Source: Dehalococcoidia bacterium
GTDB taxonomy: Bacteria; Chloroflexota; Dehalococcoidia; SM23-28-2; RBG-16-64-32
DNA length: 64,000 nucleotides
Assembly (NCBI GenBank): GCA_030649945.1
Contig: JAUSFE010000050.1
Location: 1,859-65,858, forward strand
Reading direction: 5' to 3'
A model generated the notes under the pieces. The model did no database searches. It saw nothing but the letters and a program-made list of their open reading frames with translations, and was not told where the DNA came from. This document shows, in pieces, positions 11,811 through 48,294 of this stretch. Position numbers and translations under genes: made by a program. How positions within the stretch are numbered: position 1 is the stretch's first letter; the number at the start of each line of letters is the position of its first letter.

Positions 11811-12601
11811 CAGACGCCGGGGGGACGGCCGCGGCCGTCGAAGTCCGGGCGCTGGGGGCGCTGCCCGCCCTGGCTATCGCCGCGCGGGCGGATTACCACC
11901 TTGCGCTCGTCGCCGACGCCCACGGACCCGGTCATGACGTAGGGGTCGTCCACGAGCGCCAGATGGATGATGCGGCGCTCGGCGGCGGGCATCGGCTCCA
12001 GCGTGATCGGCCGGCGGGAGTTGCGCACACGGTCAGCCATGCGCTGCGCCAGGCCGTGCAGGGTGTCTTCCCGGCGGCGGTGGTAGTGCTCAACGTCCAC
12101 GGTCACGAGCACGCGGCTGCCCAGCTTGCGGGTGACCATGACGTTGATCAGGTACTGGAGCGCGGAGAGGGTGACGCCGCGGCGGCCGATGAGCAGGCCC
12201 AGGTCCTCGCCCTCGATGTCCAGGACGGCGGTGGCCCGGCCCAGGCCGTCGGCGGCGGTCTCGGGCGCGCGTACGGACACTTCGGCCTCGGCGCCCGCCA
12301 GCTCCAGCAGCGTGCGCAGGTAGTCCACGGCCAAGTCCACCTCTTCGGCGTGGATGTCCTTGACCTCGACAGCGCCCTCGGGGACGTCTTCAGACTCCTC
12401 TTCCACGGCAGCCGGGCGCGCGGTCCCTTCCTCCAGGGCCGTCACGCGCACGCGCGCCTGCTCTCCGCCCAGGCCGAAGATGCCGGGCTTGCCGGGGGTC
12501 AGGATCTCTATGTTCGCTTGATTGCGCTTCAGCCCGAGTTCATCGAGAGCGATGTCGATGGCCTCATCGACGGTTTTTGCGCTTACCTCTACGCTTTCCA
12601 T
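11810..12601 (-). CDS. jag: RNA-binding protein Jag/KhpB (Jag_N + KH + R3H domains)
   Basis: 263 aa. Jag_N MESVEVSAKTVDEAIDIALDELG; KH GRRGVTLSALQYLINVMV; R3H LEPMPAAERRIIHLAL. Follows yidC. Confidence 0.85.
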   Translation of the reverse strand: MESVEVSAKTVDEAIDIALDELGLKRNQANIEILTPGKPGIFGLGGEQARVRVTALEEGTARPAAVEEESEDVPEGAVEVKDIHAEEVDLAVDYLRTLLELAGAEAEVSVRAPETAADGLGRATAVLDIEGEDLGLLIGRRGVTLSALQYLINVMVTRKLGSRVLVTVDVEHYHRRREDTLHGLAQRMADRVRNSRRPITLEPMPAAERRIIHLALVDDPYVMTGSVGVGDERKVVIRPRGDSQGGQRPQRPDFDGRGRPPGV

Positions 12602-13559
12602 GGGACGGCCTCACTCTTTCCACCGGAGCCGCGGGGGCCGGCTCCTCGTTGTCTCTTGCTTCTTGATCACGGCTGTCAGCCGTGGGCTTTCTGGCCGCCG
12701 GAGCGGGCTCTGGGGCGGGGCCGGGCAGCAGCAGATAGCGCCAGCTGAGGACGCGGCGGCCGTAGACGTAGTAGCTGGCGAAGAGGCTGAACACGTTGGA
12801 CGCCACCCAGTAGACGCCCACGCCGCTGGGCAGGTTCAGCGTGAAGAACACCAGCATCATGGGCATCATCCACATCATCATCTGCTGCTGCAGCTGCTGC
12901 TGGGCGCTGGCGTTGGGCGTCTGGCTCATCTTCTGCTGGATGTAGGTGGACAGGCCGACGATGAGCGGCAGGATGAAGGTGGTGTCCGGCTGGCCCAGGT
13001 TCAGGTAGAGGAAGTGCTGCTCGAGGGGCACCTGGTTCTGCAGGAAGGAGATGGGGTACAGCCGCTGCGAGAGGGCCACCAGGCTCTCCGGGCTGCCGCC
13101 CACAACGAACACCAGCGACCGGTAGAGGGCGATGAAGACGACCATCTGGATGACCATGGGCAGGAAGCAGCCCAGGGGGTTGATGTTGTGCTCCCGGTAG
13201 AGCTTCAGCATCTCCTCCTGGCGGCGCTTGGGGTCCTTGTACTTCTTCTGGATCTCCTGCATCTGCGGCTGGGCGGTCTGCATGGCCTTCGTGGACTGTA
13301 GCTGGCGGATGGTGAACGGCAGCGTGGCGAGGCGCAGGAGCAGCGTGAAGAGCAGGATGGCCAGGCCAAACTGGCCCAGGACGACCAGGTTCAGCAAGAG
13401 CAGGGCGTTAATGAGCGGATCAATGAGCAGGAGGTTGAACGTGTTGGAGAAGCCGTAAAAGACGAGCATTGAGAGGAAGACCGCGATGACCAGGAACATG
13501 CCGGCGGCGAAGGGGCTGAAGCGGCCCGGGCGGGGAGCAGAGGCGGGCTGCGCGCTCAA
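12564..13559 (-). CDS. yidC: membrane protein insertase YidC/Oxa1 family
   Basis: 331 aa, polytopic. YidC C-terminal region motifs (LPFTIRQLQSTKAMQ..IQKKYKDPKRRQEEMLKLYREHNINPLGCFLPMVIQ). Basic C-terminal tail. Confidence 0.9.
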   Translation of the reverse strand: MSAQPASAPRPGRFSPFAAGMFLVIAVFLSMLVFYGFSNTFNLLLIDPLINALLLLNLVVLGQFGLAILLFTLLLRLATLPFTIRQLQSTKAMQTAQPQMQEIQKKYKDPKRRQEEMLKLYREHNINPLGCFLPMVIQMVVFIALYRSLVFVVGGSPESLVALSQRLYPISFLQNQVPLEQHFLYLNLGQPDTTFILPLIVGLSTYIQQKMSQTPNASAQQQLQQQMMMWMMPMMLVFFTLNLPSGVGVYWVASNVFSLFASYYVYGRRVLSWRYLLLPGPAPEPAPAARKPTADSRDQEARDNEEPAPAAPVERVRPSHGKRRGKRKNRR

Positions 13560-14725: not shown

Positions 14726-14918
14726 AACCGCCGCTATTGAACGGATTGCAGCGGACCAGGCGCCACGCCGTTAACAGCGCTCCCTTGAGGACGCCGTGCC
14801 GGCCGATCGCGTCGTAGCCGTAGTGGGAGCAGGTGGGCTGAAAGCGGCAACCGGCGGGCAGGCCGGGCGAGACGCGGCGCTGGTAGAAGCGGATGGCGGC
14901 CAGGGCGGTGCCCTTCAT
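14709..14918 (-). CDS. yidD: membrane protein insertion efficiency factor YidD
   Basis: 69 aa; FYQRRVSPGLPAGCRFQPTCSHYGYDAIGRHG is the canonical YidD motif. Confidence 0.85.
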   Translation of the reverse strand: MKGTALAAIRFYQRRVSPGLPAGCRFQPTCSHYGYDAIGRHGVLKGALLTAWRLVRCNPFNSGGYDPVR

Positions 14919-15277
14919 GCTCCGTTCGCCTCCGTGGCGTCCCGCGCCAGGAGACCGGCGCGGGAGAGCAGATTGACTACCGCCCGCCGCAGTTCGGAGA
15001 AGGGGGCGCGGGCGGCGGCGGTCTTCGCGGAGAGAACGAGGTCCCAGCCCGGCTGTACGGGGAGCACGCGGACAACCTCCCGCAGGCGGCGGCGGACGCG
15101 ATTGCGGACGACGGCGCCGCCCAGCCGCTTGCTGGTGACGAAGCCGTAGCGGTTGTGCTGGAGGCTATTGGCGAGCGATCTCAGCACGAGAAGGTCGTTG
15201 TTCCAGCGGCTGCCTGTGCGGAAGACCGCATCGAAGTCCTTGCGATGCCGTAGCCGCAGCTCCCTGGGAATGCCCAA
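14915..15277 (-). CDS. rnpA: ribonuclease P protein component
   Basis: Probable TTG start (complement 15275-15277) with RBS GGGGGAG. LRLRHRKDFDAVFRTGSRWNNDLLVLR...KRLGGAVVRNRVRRRLRE is the RnpA signature. The ORF-track 5' extension to 15556 would overlap rpmH. Confidence 0.8.
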   Translation of the reverse strand: MGIPRELRLRHRKDFDAVFRTGSRWNNDLLVLRSLANSLQHNRYGFVTSKRLGGAVVRNRVRRRLREVVRVLPVQPGWDLVLSAKTAAARAPFSELRRAVVNLLSRAGLLARDATEANGA

Positions 15278-15311
15278 GCGCGCTCCCCCCTGCTGTGCGG
15301 GAGAGCGGAGC

Positions 15312-15449
15312 TCAGACGGCGAGCCGCCACCTGCCCTTGAGCATTCTGCGCTTAAGGACCGCTTTCCCTTTCTTAGTGCTGTTCCGGGCCATGAAGCCGT
15401 GGACGCGCTTGCGGCGGCGCGCTTTCGGCTGGTAAGTGCGCTTGGGCAA
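15312..15449 (-). CDS. rpmH: 50S ribosomal protein L34
   Basis: Not in the ORF track (TTG start, 45 aa). Manual translation: (M)[44 protein letters not shown], with RBS GGAGG 8 nt upstream. Confidence 0.85.
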
Positions 15450-15599
15450 GAGGGCGCCTCCAAATGCCTACACAAAGTATCGCCCGCCTCCGGCGGACGG
15501 GCGCCGCTGGGGCGGGGCCGCTCTGCATTATAGGCCGGGGGCGATTCTGGGGTCAATGAAATGGCGGCGCAGATGGCGTCTCAGAAGATTCATGGTTTA

Positions 15600-16000
15600 T
15601 CCGGCAAGACGGCACCTTGAAGGGTGTGGCATCAGGAGGCTATCGCTGCCGCAGCCTTCAGGCTGCGGTCTAAGTGTAGTGTCTCAAGAACAGCCTTACC
15701 ACGGCGCACCCTTGAAGTGAGAGACGGTACACGAGGGGTTCGGGCGCGCCATCGTCCCTCGCTCGCAGGTCTGCCCCACCCCAGATCCCTTCGCGAAGCT
15801 GCGCAGAGCCACGTGGCAGATGTCGTCTCGCTCAGGATGACGGACGGGATGGCGCCGCGCCTGCCTACCGCAGGCAGGCTCAACGTACCACGGGATACAG
15901 TCAAGGTATTTTGGAGACGGTACAATAGTAAGACCACACCCTTCAGGGTGTGGCATCAGGGGGCTATCGCCGCCGTCGGCTTCAGGCTGCGGTCAACTAC
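15600..16000. repeat. two direct copies (about 15617-15680 and about 15940-16000) of a roughly 60-bp element with two perfect hairpins (CACACCC-TTCA-GGGTGTG; GCAGCC-TTCA-GGCTGC), plus a copy of dispersed family R4 (CCCCAGATCCCTTCGCGAAGCT)
   Basis: Seen in the sequence. Region is non-coding and lies between rpmH and the ileS leader promoter. Confidence 0.5.
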
Positions 16001-16110
16001 GCCGTCACGTCGCCCCCGTTCGGTAACCCTACCCTTGAGGCAACGGCTTTCCTTCGGTAACCGTTATTATGAGGCAGATCGTAACCGTTTAAGTGAGGCA
16101 GATCGGCTGT

Positions 16111-16139
16111 TTGACAGCCCGCCCGGGCATGCCTACACT
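16111..16139 (+). promoter_or_regulatory. sigma-70-like promoter TTGACA-17bp-TACACT driving the ileS leader
   Basis: Consensus -35 hexamer, 17-bp spacer, near-consensus -10; about 410 nt upstream of the ileS ATG. Confidence 0.5.
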
Positions 16140-16145
16140 AGGGTC

Positions 16146-16440
16146 ACAATCGAACAACAAAGGCGAAGACGGAGACGAGTACGGCGCGCGGGGCCGGCCA
16201 GCGAGTCCCGCAGGGTGCGAGGGGACGCGGAGCCGCCGCCCGAAAATCACTCCCGAGCCGCCGACCGAACAGCGCCCCGAAGCGCCCAGTAGACTCGGCC
16301 GGAAGCCACCGTTAGCAGAGGCAGGCGTATAAGTCCGCCACCGGCGGGCCGTATGCCGGAATGAGCGTCCCCGCCTGAGGCGGGGAAATCAAGGTGGTAC
16401 CACGGGCAGAAGCTCGTCCTTTTGGGACGGGCTTTTTTGT
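16146..16440 (+). promoter_or_regulatory. T-box riboswitch leader (Ile-specific candidate) with intrinsic terminator, upstream of ileS
   Basis: T-box consensus AATCAAGGTGGTACCACGGG at about 16386-16405. This is immediately followed by the terminator hairpin GCTCGTCC-TTTT-GGGACGGGC + TTTTTTGT (16412-16439). Candidate specifier AUC-A at about 16246. Confidence 0.55.
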
Positions 16441-16555
16441 TGGGGAAGGAGCGAGAAGTCATGCAATCAAGCAATCATGCAATCAAGCAATCAACGCGCG
16501 TCGTCTCGCTTGATCCGATGATCGCATGCTTGCCTGATCGCCGAAGGAGCGCGCT

Positions 16556-19792
<3,237 letters not shown>

Positions 19793-47279: not shown

Positions 47280-47487
47280 GTCACGAGACAGGAGACACGA
47301 ATGTGCCGGCGTGCGCCGTGCCCCGGCTGTCTGCGTCGCGTTAGGCCCCGCCGCCCGTTAGCCACAGATGACACGGATCGCCGCAGATGCACACAGATGC
47401 CCTTCCCCACCCCGCCTGGTCTGCTTGATTGCCTACCTAATTGCTTGATTGATTGCCTGATTTTACCTGCTTCCCGCTTCCCAGTTC

Positions 47488-48192
47488 CTAACCGCCCAAC
47501 TGGACGGCCGCGCCGGGCGCCGGACACCCCGCCGCCTGGCTGACGGGCAGGTCTACCAGGTCTCGGGCGGTCTTCTGGGCGTCGCCGATCGTGACGCCGT
47601 TCTGGCAGTCCAGGTCGCCCCAGAGGCGGGACGTGCCGTCCACCGTCACTGCCGCCCCGGGCGCCGGGCAGCCAGGGCCCTGGGTGATGGGGATGTCTAC
47701 CAGGTCGCGGGCGATCTTCTGGGCGTCGCCGATGGTGATGCCGCTCTGGCAGTCGAAATCGCCCCAGAGGCGGCCGGCGGGCGTCGCCGTAGGTCCGGCC
47801 GTGGGGCTCGGCGCCGTCGTTGGGCTGGGGCTCGGCCCAGCGGGGAAGTCCGCCGCATCGCCGGGCCAGGTGTGGGCGTTTATCTCGGCGATGTTGGTGG
47901 CGCCGTCGCCGTCAGAGTCCAGGTTCTCCACCGCTGTCAACGCCGGATCGATACCGAGACCGATGTGGCCCTTGACGGCATCGCCATAAGTGTTCCAGTC
48001 GCCCGTGTCACCGGAGACATGGCAGGCGTCGCAACTGTTTAGCTTGGTACCGGTGAGGTTGTACTTGTTGACGAAAGCGGTCCTGTAGCTGCCCAAGCCC
48101 AAGACGGAGGATCCCGTCAGCAACGCCGCCGTGACTACGACTCCCGCCACCACCAGCAAGACAGCGAGACGACCTCGGTTCGTGGTCATATC
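47488..48192 (-). CDS. secreted protein with one CxxCH motif and three dockerin/EF-hand-like Ca-binding repeats
   Basis: Signal/TM MTTNRGRLAVLLVVAGVVVTAALL. CDACH. DSDGDGATNIAEI. Two repeats of GD(F/L)DCQ.G(I/V)TIGDAQK.ARDLVD. Confidence 0.6.
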   Translation of the reverse strand, partial: DMTTNRGRLAVLLVVAGVVVTAALLTGSSVLGLGSYRTAFVNKYNLTGTKLNSCDACHVSGDTGDWNTYGDAVKGHIGLGIDPALTAVENLDSDGDGATNIAEINAHTWPGDAADFPAGPSPSPTTAPSPTAGPTATPAGRLWGDFDCQSGITIGDAQKIARDLVDIPITQGPGCPAPGAAVTVDGTSRLWGDLDCQNGVTIGDAQKTARDLVDLPVSQAAGCPAPGAAVQLGG

Positions 48193-48294
48193 CTTAGCCC
48201 TCCTTACGGGGCCAATGTTAAGGGAGGACTCGGGCATGACACACATATCTTTGGGTAGGTTCCAGTCACGGGCGACGGACGCCTCTATCCAGCC

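What the first reader, a model, noticed from the sequence alone, without database searches (positions are those of the whole stretch)
16111..16440. T-box riboswitch leader with consensus promoter and intrinsic terminator upstream of type-2 ileS
A TTGACA-17-TACACT promoter starts an about 290-nt leader. Its 3' end contains AAUCAAGGUGGUACCACGGG (T-box consensus AAnnnGGGUGGnACCGCGG). This is immediately followed by a strong terminator (8-bp GC stem, UUUU loop, U7 tract) 115 nt before the ileS ATG.

An AUC-A triplet at about 16246 is a plausible Ile specifier.
Basis: partly seen in the sequence, partly recalled or inferred. Interest (0 to 1): 0.55.

Follow-up and report, generated by a model that had tools for sequence, protein, structure and literature searches.

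The report
Isoleucine T-box riboswitch before ileS
This is an ordinary tRNA-sensing "T-box" RNA switch that most likely turns on the isoleucyl-tRNA synthetase gene when uncharged isoleucine tRNA accumulates; it is a well-known kind of regulator, already reported in this bacterial phylum, that standard annotation thresholds miss here.

Summary
Window 16157-16424 (+) matches the Rfam T-box model RF00230 over its full length (74.2 bits, E = 3.6e-16). This is below Rfam's gathering score of 93, so a default scan reports nothing; the score line carries a bias value of 21.0 bits.

All canonical parts are present:
- TTGACA-17-TACACT promoter.
- Stem I with K-turn, AUC-A specifier, AG bulge and distal loop.
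- Stem II with S-turn, Stem IIA/B pseudoknot and CCGUUA F-box.
- Purine string, Stem III and AA flank.
- UGGUACC bulge in an antiterminator (-8.8 kcal/mol) that shares its 3' strand with a stronger terminator (-18 to -20.8 kcal/mol) followed by a U6 tract.

The gene downstream is IleRS with type-2 domain content. About half of 160 related Chloroflexota ileS loci carry the same leader. Every genuine Stem I match (47) has an ATC specifier. Structure-aware alignments show 95-97% pairing with many compensatory changes.

Minor peculiarities:
- A clade-conserved extra hairpin in the linker.
- An A-U pair replacing the conserved G•U "steric sieve" pair.
- A lineage-specific 115-nt spacer with tandem repeats.

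Ile T-boxes in Chloroflexi were reported in 2008. This is a new member of a known kind, of low interest.

The parts
16111..16139 (+). Sigma-70-type promoter: -35 TTGACA (16111-16116), 17-nt spacer, -10 TACACT (16134-16139). The inferred transcription start is near A16146.
   Evidence: Consensus scan, 10/12 match. A TTGAC-type -35 lies at a similar distance upstream of Stem I in most relatives, and the same -10 TACACT occurs in L001, L015, L049, L053 and L065. The start site is inferred, not shown.
16163..16258 (+). Stem I. Base pairs G16163-C16258 and C16164-G16257. K-turn GAAGAC 16165-16170 with GA 16255-16256. Helix 16171-16174 with 16250-16253. Specifier loop: 5' ACGAGUA 16175-16181 and 3' GAAA-AUC-A 16242-16249. 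Helices 16183-16186 with 16237-16240 and 16194-16196 with 16228-16230. AG bulge AGCGA 16200-16204. Helix 16205-16209 with 16222-16226. Distal loop GCAGGGUGCGAG 16210-16221.
   Evidence: Rfam alignment. Model R2 alignment of 48 sequences: 94.9% of cells paired against 36-52% for slid controls, and 16 of 20 pairs with changes on both sides.
16246..16249 (+). Specifier codon AUC (Ile), 16246-16248, followed by the stacking purine A16249.
   Evidence: This is the specifier position in the RF00230 alignment. ATC is present in 47 of 47 related ileS leaders.
16260..16299 (+). Stem II. Lower helix 16260-16264 with 16295-16299. S-turn signature CCGAA 16265-16269 and AGUAGA 16288-16293. Upper helix 16272-16275 with 16282-16285.
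   Evidence: RNAalifold on 9 leaders shows compensatory changes in both helices. Model R3 alignment: all 5 lower-helix pairs covary, with 97% of cells paired.
16300..16322 (+). Stem IIA/B pseudoknot with the F-box. IIA: CGG 16300-16302 with CCG 16309-16311. F-box CCGUUA 16309-16314. IIB: GCC 16305-16307 with GGC 16320-16322.
   Evidence: IIA is invariant in 33 sequences. The IIB partners covary among relatives: GCCC/GGGC, TCGTCCC/GGGACGA, TCGCTCC/GGGGCGA and TTTGTCCT/AGGACAGG. IIB is only 3 bp in the window.
16324..16357 (+). Extra hairpin in the linker between the F-box and Stem III, absent from the Rfam consensus. Outer helix 16324-16330 with 16351-16357. Inner helix 16333-16339 with 16343-16349. 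Loop ACC.
   Evidence: It appears as a 38-nt insertion relative to RF00230. The outer helix is present in about 30 of 33 Chloroflexota leaders, with 6 of 7 pairs covarying and 96.7% of cells paired. The inner extension is present in about a third of them.
16363..16388 (+). Discriminator 5' half: purine string GAGCG 16363-16367 (RRRxG), Stem III 16368-16375 with 16379-16386 (8 bp, loop UGA), and the flanking AA 16387-16388.
   Evidence: All 7 modelled Stem III pairs covary. AGYG or AGAG lies 5' of Stem III in most of the 94 matches, and AA lies 3' of it in 89 of 94. The motif definition is from PMC7583486.
16391..16421 (+). Antiterminator. Helix A1 16391-16394 with 16418-16421. T-box bulge UGGUACC 16395-16401, where UGGU would pair with the tRNA 3' ACCA. 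Helix A2 16402-16407 with 16412-16417. Loop AGAA. The A2 closing pair is A16402-U16417 in place of the conserved G•U.
   Evidence: Rfam alignment. Energy -8.8 kcal/mol. Covariation on 45 sequences. The window's A16392-U16420 is a double change from the usual G-C. The closing pair among 94 matches is G•U in 86, A-U in 5 and G-C in 3.
16409..16441 (+). Intrinsic terminator. Stem 16409-16420 with 16424-16435; the G+C-rich core is 16412-16420 with 16424-16432. Loop UUU. U6 tract 16433-16438, then GUU. The 5' arm reuses the antiterminator's 3' strand (16412-16421).
   Evidence: MFE is -18.0 kcal/mol for the hairpin alone and -20.8 in context. RNAalifold shows compensatory changes. 33 of the 35 relatives examined have the equivalent hairpin with a U-rich tail.
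16442..16555 (+). Spacer between the terminator and ileS. It holds tandem 8/16-nt repeats (16459-16494), an SD-like GAAGGAG at 16445-16451 ahead of a 36-codon ORF (16461-16571), and the ileS SD GAAGGAG at 16543-16549.
   Evidence: Tandem repeats. Its fold is no better than shuffles, z = +0.40. The closest relatives have short spacers without the repeat. ORF translation. No function is assigned.
16556..19792 (+). ileS, the regulated gene: isoleucyl-tRNA synthetase, 1078 aa, with type-2 domain content.
   Evidence: TIGR00392, 913 bits. Pfam tRNA-synt_1, Anticodon_1 and DUF5915. Relatives align from residue 1.

Best explanation
This is a transcriptional (terminator/antiterminator) T-box riboswitch specific for tRNA-Ile. 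It controls ileS in a high-G+C member of the Chloroflexota.

Transcription starts at the TTGACA-17-TACACT promoter, near 16146. The nascent leader folds Stem I, Stem II and the IIA/B pseudoknot, which together form the decoding module. tRNA-Ile(GAU) is recognised through pairing of its anticodon with the AUC specifier (16246-16248) and through stacking of its elbow on the distal platform of Stem I.

If the tRNA is uncharged, its 3' ACCA end pairs with UGGU (16395-16398) in the T-box bulge. This stabilises the weak antiterminator (16391-16421), and RNA polymerase reads through into ileS. If the tRNA is charged, the aminoacyl group clashes with the discriminator. The strand 16412-16421 then joins the much more stable terminator hairpin (16409-16435 plus the U6 tract), and transcription stops 115 nt before the start codon.

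Shown here: sequence and structure membership, covariation of all helices, the two mutually exclusive 3' structures, codon-gene concordance, and conservation across relatives. Inferred from the family's established mechanism: tRNA binding, sensing of charging, the start site, and actual termination.
For: - Full-length RF00230 match, 74.2 bits, E = 3.6e-16. It is the only RNA family hit in the window.
- The downstream gene is IleRS.
- The specifier is ATC in 47 of 47 related ileS leaders.
- Structure-aware alignments give the following. Stem I: 94.9% of cells paired, 16 of 20 pairs with double changes. Stem II, IIA and the linker hairpin: 96.6%, 16 of 20. Stem III and the antiterminator: 96.5%, 12 of 17. 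In each case no shuffle out of 500 reached the observed value, and the slid controls gave 36-61%.
- The IIB pseudoknot partners covary.
- The terminator is -18 to -20.8 kcal/mol and the antiterminator -8.8 kcal/mol, and they share a strand. These values match the TBDB averages of -19.5 and -7.4.
- 33 of the 35 relatives examined have the equivalent terminator with a U-rich tail.
- The discriminator motifs RRRxG-Stem III-AA and UGGUACC are present.
- The promoter is at a conserved position.
- An Ile-tRNA-ligase T-box was already reported in Chloroflexi (Dehalococcoides) (PMC2494555).
Against: - The score is below Rfam's gathering score (74.2 against 93). Nine of the ten T-box hits in the closest relatives are also below it, and the hit line shows a bias value of 21.0 bits. 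In Infernal's output, as I understand it, this is a composition correction already subtracted from the score.
- The IIB pseudoknot is only 3 bp.
- The unconstrained whole-leader MFE does not reproduce the T-box fold, and its stability is only marginally better than shuffles (z = -1.85). This is not unexpected for a 69% G+C RNA with alternative states.
- The tool's simple terminator scan missed the site.
- No tRNA-Ile gene is available to confirm the anticodon and discriminator base.
- There are no expression data.
Confidence: 0.93

Rival explanations
1. This is a translational T-box of the kind found upstream of ileS in Actinobacteria. On this reading the 3' alternative structure sequesters the Shine-Dalgarno sequence rather than terminating transcription.
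For: ileS is the classic gene under translational T-box control in another high-G+C phylum. A few very G+C-rich relatives (L002, L010) have the hairpin but no U-run.
Against: The window's hairpin is followed by U6-G-UU. The ileS SD (16543-16549) lies more than 100 nt downstream of the switch and takes no part in it. Stem I is full length, with the specifier in an internal loop and a distal platform. Translational ileS T-boxes instead have a truncated Stem I with an apical-loop specifier.
Confidence: 0.03
2. This is a decaying or rewired T-box. It would keep the sequence signature but no longer discriminate charged from uncharged tRNA because of the A-U substitution at the steric-sieve pair. 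It would then act as a constitutive attenuator or as a general tRNA-Ile-abundance sensor.
For: G•U at the base of helix A2 is described as the primary sieve against 3'-aminoacyl groups. The window has A16402-U16417, a state seen in only 5 of 94 related discriminators.
Against: The sensor uridine itself is retained. The variant recurs in four other leaders (L092, L128, L139, L159), which argues against a one-off defect. Natural G-C variants are reported to work as steric filters (PMC11404447). Every other motif is intact, and the window's second change in helix A1 is compensatory (A-U for G-C), which indicates continued selection on the antiterminator.
Confidence: 0.04
3. There is a second regulatory layer in the 115-nt spacer. 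This would be a structured element or a small upstream ORF (16461-16571) translationally coupled to ileS, acting in addition to the T-box.
For: The spacer is unusually long for this clade. It contains 4.5 tandem 8-nt repeats. It also holds a duplicate of the ileS SD context (GAAGGAGCG) 9 nt ahead of an ATG. That ATG opens a 36-codon ORF ending 16 nt inside ileS.
Against: The predicted hairpin is no more stable than shuffled sequence (z = +0.40). The closest relatives (L001, L081-L090) have 65-85 nt from the T-box core to the ATG, with no repeat and no ORF. Rfam gives no hit in the spacer at E <= 1; its only match there, to a microRNA family at E = 1.4, is at chance level.
Confidence: 0.05

Closest known systems
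T-box leader, Rfam RF00230: the transcriptional, Stem II-containing class (archetype Bacillus subtilis tyrS; ileS leaders of Firmicutes)
   Same: The domain order is the same: Stem I with K-turn, specifier loop, AG bulge and distal loop; Stem II with S-turn; the IIA/B pseudoknot and F-box; Stem III with flanking purines; the UGGNACC bulge in an antiterminator; and a competing terminator with a U-tract. The specifier matches the regulated aaRS gene. The terminator and antiterminator energies are typical.
   Different: The leader is 69% G+C and scores below the curated gathering score. It has an extra 34-nt hairpin between the F-box and Stem III. An A-U pair replaces G•U at the base of helix A2. 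The IIB helix is short (3 bp). A long spacer separates the terminator from the start codon.
Ile-tRNA-ligase T-box of Dehalococcoides (Chloroflexi), reported by Wels et al. 2008 (PMC2494555)
   Same: Same phylum, same regulated gene and same regulator family. My survey finds the element upstream of ileS in 45 of 80 reference-genome relatives and about 45 of 80 metagenomic relatives.
   Different: The window's IleRS is at most 74% identical to any relative found, so this is a previously unsampled lineage. I did not compare it with the Dehalococcoides leader sequence itself.
Translational ileS T-boxes of Actinobacteria (Mycobacterium tuberculosis, Nocardia farcinica)
   Same: The specificity is Ile, the gene is ileS, and the host is high in G+C. 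They also share the Stem II S-turn, the IIA/B pseudoknot and the discriminator architecture.
   Different: The actinobacterial leaders have a truncated Stem I with the specifier in the apical loop, and they sequester the SD. The window has a full-length Stem I and a terminator with a U-tract far from the SD.

Membership tests
T-box leader (RF00230) | Score at or above Rfam's curated gathering score (93 bits). This is an operational criterion. | tested here: not met
   74.2 bits. The hit line shows a bias value of 21.0 bits. Nine of the ten hits in the closest relatives are also below 93, ranging from 35.6 (a truncated hit) to 90.5; only L011 reaches it, at 98.3. This is a curation cut-off and not a biological feature.
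T-box leader (RF00230) | Statistically significant full-length match to the covariance model | tested here: met
   Model positions 1-219 of 219. E = 3.6e-16 and 3.3e-14 over the whole window.
T-box leader (RF00230) | Stem I with a K-turn at its base and a specifier loop. The loop presents a codon that matches the regulated gene and is followed by a purine. | tested here: met
   GAAGAC with GA forms the K-turn. AGUA and GAA flank the loop. AUC 16246-16248 is followed by A16249, upstream of ileS. ATC is present in 47 of 47 relatives. Helices covary.
T-box leader (RF00230) | Distal Stem I platform (AG bulge and distal loop) for the tRNA elbow | tested here: met
   AGCGA 16200-16204 and GCAGGGUGCGAG 16210-16221 align to the conserved AGAGA and GGUGNRA positions. 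Both are conserved in nearly all of the 47 leaders. The tertiary interdigitated fold itself cannot be tested here.
T-box leader (RF00230) | Stem II with S-turn, IIA/B pseudoknot and F-box. This domain is optional in the family. | tested here: met
   CCGAA...AGUAGA, CGG/CCG, CCGUUA and GCC/GGC are present. Stem II and IIB covary among relatives.
T-box leader (RF00230) | Discriminator: 5'-RRRxG-Stem III-AA-3' next to the antiterminator, with the 7-nt bulge UGGNACC | tested here: met
   GAGCG 16363-16367, Stem III 16368-16386, AA 16387-16388 and UGGUACC 16395-16401. The motif definition is from PMC7583486.
T-box leader (RF00230) | [quoted passage not shown] | tested here: not met
   The window has A16402-U16417. 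Among 94 related discriminators the pair is G•U in 86, A-U in 5 and G-C in 3. The sensor U is kept. G-C variants are accepted, functional members, so this is variation within the family and not grounds for exclusion.
T-box leader (RF00230) | [quoted passage not shown] | tested here: met
   The strand 16412-16421 is shared. The terminator is -18.0 to -20.8 kcal/mol and the antiterminator -8.8. A U6 tract follows. The arrangement is conserved in 33 of the 35 relatives examined.
T-box leader (RF00230) | [quoted passage not shown] | not testable with these tools
   There is no tRNA gene in the window, and no tRNA-Ile in the ten related loci I scanned. From general knowledge, bacterial tRNA-Ile(GAU) reads AUC and carries A73, which would pair with the U of UGGU. 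This was not verified for this organism.
T-box leader (RF00230) | Readthrough that depends on uncharged tRNA | not testable with these tools
   This requires in vitro transcription or expression data.
Translational ileS T-box (Actinobacteria type) | Truncated Stem I with the specifier in the apical loop, and a 3' alternative helix that sequesters the SD | tested here: not met
   Stem I is full length, with an internal specifier loop. The SD at 16543-16549 is more than 100 nt from the switch, and a U-tract terminator is present.
Type-2 (eukaryote-like) isoleucyl-tRNA synthetase | IleRS catalytic core plus the type-2 C-terminal extension, without the type-1 zinc-finger C-terminus | tested here: met
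   TIGR00392, 913 bits. MupA and MupB models score 773-809 bits, below their exception cut-offs. Pfam gives tRNA-synt_1, Anticodon_1 and DUF5915 at residues 974-1077, with no zinc-finger IleRS domain hit. The type-1/type-2 assignment rests on my knowledge of these domain signatures. No phylogeny was made.

The most novel reading that the evidence does not exclude
The Chloroflexota ileS T-boxes, including this one, may form a structurally distinct subclass. The features would be a conserved extra hairpin in the normally single-stranded hinge between the decoding module and the discriminator; a pyrimidine in place of the 'critical' stacking purine 3' of the specifier in about two thirds of members; and, in a few lineages such as this window, a Watson-Crick A-U in place of the G•U steric-sieve pair. 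If these changes alter co-transcriptional folding timing or the stringency of aminoacylation sensing, they would be natural experiments on the T-box hinge and steric-sieve model.
Probability: 0.15. Interest if true: 0.35.

Novelty: new member of a known kind. Interest (0 to 1): 0.13.

Why it matters
For this genome, it identifies how the ileS gene found in this window is most likely feedback-regulated. More generally, it shows that the Rfam gathering score under-calls T-boxes in high-G+C Chloroflexota: only 1 of the 10 hits in the closest relatives passes it. Riboswitch censuses of this phylum based on default thresholds will therefore miss most of them. The natural A-U variant at the steric-sieve pair and the conserved linker hairpin are small, testable variations on a structurally well-understood mechanism. 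None of this changes current understanding of T-boxes.

Tried and rejected
- **Default Rfam scan of the window.** It returned nothing. The hit appears only in E-value mode.
- **Unconstrained MFE of the whole leader.** It did not reproduce the T-box architecture and was only marginally more stable than shuffles (z = -1.85). I did not use it as evidence either way.
- **MAFFT alignment of nine full leaders (A1).** This was good enough for RNAalifold, but the register slipped by one base in Stem III and in the terminator arms. I replaced it with three covariance models seeded on the window and L001.
- **RNAalifold's long-range pairing of CCACC (F-box region) with GGUGG (T-box).** Both sides are invariant, so nothing supports the pairing. 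It also conflicts with the known architecture. Rejected.
- **A structured element in the spacer.** Rejected: z = +0.40, and it is absent from the closest relatives.
- **The tRNA upstream of the leader in L001.** I considered a link to the specifier, but it is tRNA-Pro(CGG) and therefore unrelated.
- **A closer relative from metagenomes.** I searched for one to test conservation of the window-specific features. The best was only 74% identical at the protein level.
- **oriC in the repeat-rich upstream intergenic region.** I considered this because rpmH-rnpA-yidC lies next to it. Cumulative GC skew rises through the whole window without an inflection. I did not run a formal DnaA-box search.
- **My first pseudoknot script.** Its regular expression over-extended the 'loop'. 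Only the loop ends and the downstream segments it printed were used.
- **The terminator survey script.** It stopped on a variant core after 35 of 45 loci, so the count is given as 33 of 35.

Full report
**The observation**

- A TTGACA-17-TACACT promoter lies at 16111-16139. It is a 10/12 match. Two such sites were found in the 1.5-kb region, against 0.2 expected from shuffles.
- The T-box sequence AAUCAAGGUGGUACCACGGG lies at 16387-16406.
- AUC followed by A lies at 16246-16249.
- A G+C-rich hairpin followed by UUUUUUGUU ends at 16441, 115 nt before the ATG at 16556.

The ORF 16556-19792 is isoleucyl-tRNA synthetase (TIGR00392, 913 bits). Its Pfam domains are tRNA-synt_1, Anticodon_1 and a C-terminal DUF5915, with no zinc-finger C-terminal hit. 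It also has strong partial similarity to MupA and MupB.

A default Rfam scan of the whole window at gathering thresholds returns nothing. In E-value mode, RF00230 (T-box) aligns over its full length (model positions 1-219) to 16157-16424. The score is 74.2 bits, with E = 3.6e-16 and 3.3e-14 over the whole window. It is the only RNA family hit in the window.

The score is below the curated gathering score of 93. The hit line carries a bias value of 21.0 bits. As I understand Infernal's output, this is the composition correction already subtracted from the score. The match is 69% G+C and also contains two insertions relative to the model.

The shortfall is typical of the clade. Ten of the eleven closest related ileS loci have T-box hits, at 35.6-98.3 bits (the lowest is cut off by a contig end). 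Only one of them reaches 93.

**Lineage and conservation**

IleRS relatives in reference genomes and metagenomes are all Chloroflexota, mostly Dehalococcoidia-class MAGs. The best is 70% identical in reference genomes and 74% in metagenomes, so the exact lineage is unsampled.

The core GGTGGTACCGCG lies upstream of ileS in 45 of 80 reference loci. My covariance model of the discriminator finds 45 matches in the window plus the 80 reference loci, and 49 in the 80 metagenomic loci.

**Anatomy and covariation**

I built three covariance models seeded on the window and its closest relative L001, using the Rfam-derived structure. I used them to align all fetched loci with structure taken into account.

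| Domain | Sequences | Cells paired | Slid controls | Pairs with changes on both sides |
|---|---|---|---|---|
| Stem I | 48 | 94.9% | 36-52% | 16 of 20 |
| Stem II lower helix, IIA, linker hairpin | 33 | 96.6% | 36-49% | 16 of 20 |
| Stem III and antiterminator | 45 | 96.5% | 46-61% | 12 of 17 |

In each case none of 500 shuffles reached the observed value. These alignments are fitted to the model, which favours the structure. An independent MAFFT and RNAalifold analysis of nine leaders also gave compensatory changes in 28 of 65 predicted pairs, covering Stem I, both Stem II helices and the terminator.

The IIB pseudoknot partners covary among relatives: GCCC/GGGC, TCGTCCC/GGGACGA, TCGCTCC/GGGGCGA and TTTGTCCT/AGGACAGG. 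In the window the pairing is GCC/GGC.

The specifier is ATC in 47 of 47 genuine Stem I matches.

The discriminator motifs defined by the structural work (review PMC7583486) are present: GAGCG (RRRxG) at 16363-16367, Stem III at 16368-16386, AA at 16387-16388, and the UGGUACC bulge at 16395-16401. They are conserved across the 94 related discriminators.

**The switch**

The antiterminator consists of helix A1 (16391-16394 with 16418-16421) and helix A2 (16402-16407 with 16412-16417). It has a computed energy of -8.8 kcal/mol. The terminator (16409-16420 with 16424-16435, followed by the U6 tract) has -18.0 kcal/mol alone and -20.8 in context. It uses the same strand, 16412-16421.

These values sit on the TBDB averages for transcriptional T-boxes, -7.4 ± 4.2 and -19.5 ± 7.9 kcal/mol. 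Of the 35 relatives I examined, 33 have the equivalent hairpin with a U-rich tail.

The ileS Shine-Dalgarno sequence (16543-16549) is more than 100 nt away and takes no part in the switch. Together with the full-length Stem I, this rules out the actinobacterial translational type.

**Mechanism**

The best-supported explanation is the established T-box mechanism.
1. tRNA-Ile is recognised by pairing of its anticodon with the specifier and by stacking of its elbow on the Stem I platform.
2. The free 3' ACCA end of uncharged tRNA pairs with UGGU and stabilises the antiterminator, which allows readthrough.
3. Charged tRNA is rejected sterically, and the terminator forms.

The following are shown here: family membership, covarying structure, the two mutually exclusive 3' structures, and concordance between specifier and gene. 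The following are inferred: the transcription start, tRNA binding, sensing of charge, and actual termination.

No tRNA gene lies in the window. The anticodon and the discriminator base (expected GAU and A73 from general knowledge) could therefore not be checked.

**Departures from the textbook element**

1. *Extra linker hairpin.* A 34-nt hairpin (16324-16357) sits in the linker between the F-box and Stem III. It appears as a 38-nt insertion relative to RF00230. It is not a quirk of this sequence. Its outer helix is present in about 30 of 33 Chloroflexota leaders, and 6 of its 7 pairs covary.
2. *A-U at the steric-sieve pair.* The pair closing helix A2 next to the bulge is A16402-U16417. The conserved state is a G•U wobble, which the review describes as the primary steric sieve against 3'-aminoacyl groups. 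Among the 94 related discriminators the pair is G•U in 86, A-U in 5 (the window, L092, L128, L139 and L159) and G-C in 3. The sensor U is retained. G-C variants are reported to be functional (PMC11404447). The window's other core change, A16392-U16420 for G-C, is compensatory. I read all this as tolerated variation.
3. *Long spacer.* The 115-nt spacer after the terminator contains 4.5 tandem copies of an 8-nt unit. It also contains a 36-codon ORF behind a duplicated SD context. Its fold is no better than shuffles (z = +0.40), and the closest relatives lack it. It is a lineage-specific insertion with no demonstrated role.

**Comparison with what is known, and verdict**

T-boxes are among the best-characterised riboswitch classes. 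An Ile-tRNA-ligase T-box in Chloroflexi (Dehalococcoides) was reported in 2008 (PMC2494555). Chloroflexi are listed among the phyla that inherited T-boxes.

This element is a new member of a known kind in an unsampled Chloroflexota lineage. The practical lesson is that default Rfam thresholds miss most such leaders in this clade. The small structural variants are mildly interesting to T-box specialists. Overall interest is low.

Noticed in passing
window 15557-16110: The 550-nt divergent intergenic region between rpmH-rnpA (minus strand) and the ileS promoter is rich in repeats. A 65-nt direct repeat occurs at 15606-15670 and 15930-15994 (85% identity), and each copy carries two hairpins. A 24-nt tandem repeat, GTAACCGTT-N4-TGAGGCAGATC x2, lies at 16057-16104, with a diverged third copy at 16019-16042. 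The tandem repeat ends 6 nt before the -35 hexamer. Both repeat families are unique in the window, and Rfam finds nothing there. They could be transcription-factor sites or remnants of a mobile element.
   Followed up: partly
window 16459-16494 and 47419-47458 (minus strand): An A/C-rich 8-nt unit, TCA[A/T]GCAA, is repeated 4.5 times in the ileS spacer. Similar GCAATCAA repeats occur in another intergenic region just after the stop codon of the ORF 47488-48246 (minus strand). The spacer of relative L009 has ATGCAACC x2. The meaning is unknown.
   Followed up: partly
window 16461-16571: A 36-codon ORF (MQSSNHAIKQSTRVVSLDPMIACLPDRRRSALCSNL) starts 9 nt after an SD-like GAAGGAG and ends 16 nt inside ileS. 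The same GAAGGAGCG context precedes the ileS start codon. It is not conserved in the closest relatives.
   Followed up: partly
window about 15290-15430 (minus strand), 14915-15556, 12564-13559: rpmH (L34...[43 protein letters not shown]) is followed on the minus strand by rnpA, a PQQ-like beta-propeller protein and yidC. They lie behind a TTGACC-18-TATAAT promoter-like site at 15556-15527. The listed 213-aa rnpA ORF is probably over-extended at its N-terminus, because the Pfam domain begins at residue 97.
   Followed up: partly
A6 alignment (Stem I of 47 Chloroflexota ileS leaders): The nucleotide immediately 3' of the AUC specifier is C in 31 leaders, A in 13, G in 2 and U in 1. The literature describes a conserved, functionally critical purine at this position. 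The window has the canonical A.
   Followed up: partly
L003-L010, L014, L032 (between the terminator and ileS): These relatives have spacers of roughly 90-130 nt between the terminator and the start codon (142-178 nt from the T-box core to the ATG). Most of them (not L003 or L004) share a block (G/T)GGTACG(A/C), or GGATACG in L009, followed in several by a short hairpin and GGTTG. It lies about 60-70 nt after the terminator. No Rfam family matched at E <= 0.001 in the members that were scanned. The block is absent from the window. It may be an unrecognised second leader element.
   Followed up: no
L006 4799-4933, L010 4808-4946: c-di-AMP riboswitches (RF00379, 89-92 bits) lie immediately downstream of ileS in two Tepidiforma-like relatives.
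   Followed up: no
L091, L093, L096, L139: In these metagenomic relatives the Ile T-box is followed by a small ORF of about 130 codons with a hydrophobic, membrane-protein-like sequence, placed before ileS. The T-box there would control a two-gene operon.
   Followed up: no
L103 5525-5577 (minus strand), L114 6758-6832 (minus strand): Additional discriminator-like matches with a UGGCACC bulge and a G-C closing pair lie on the opposite strand, downstream of ileS. They suggest other T-boxes, for a tRNA with a G73 discriminator, that regulate neighbouring genes.
   Followed up: no
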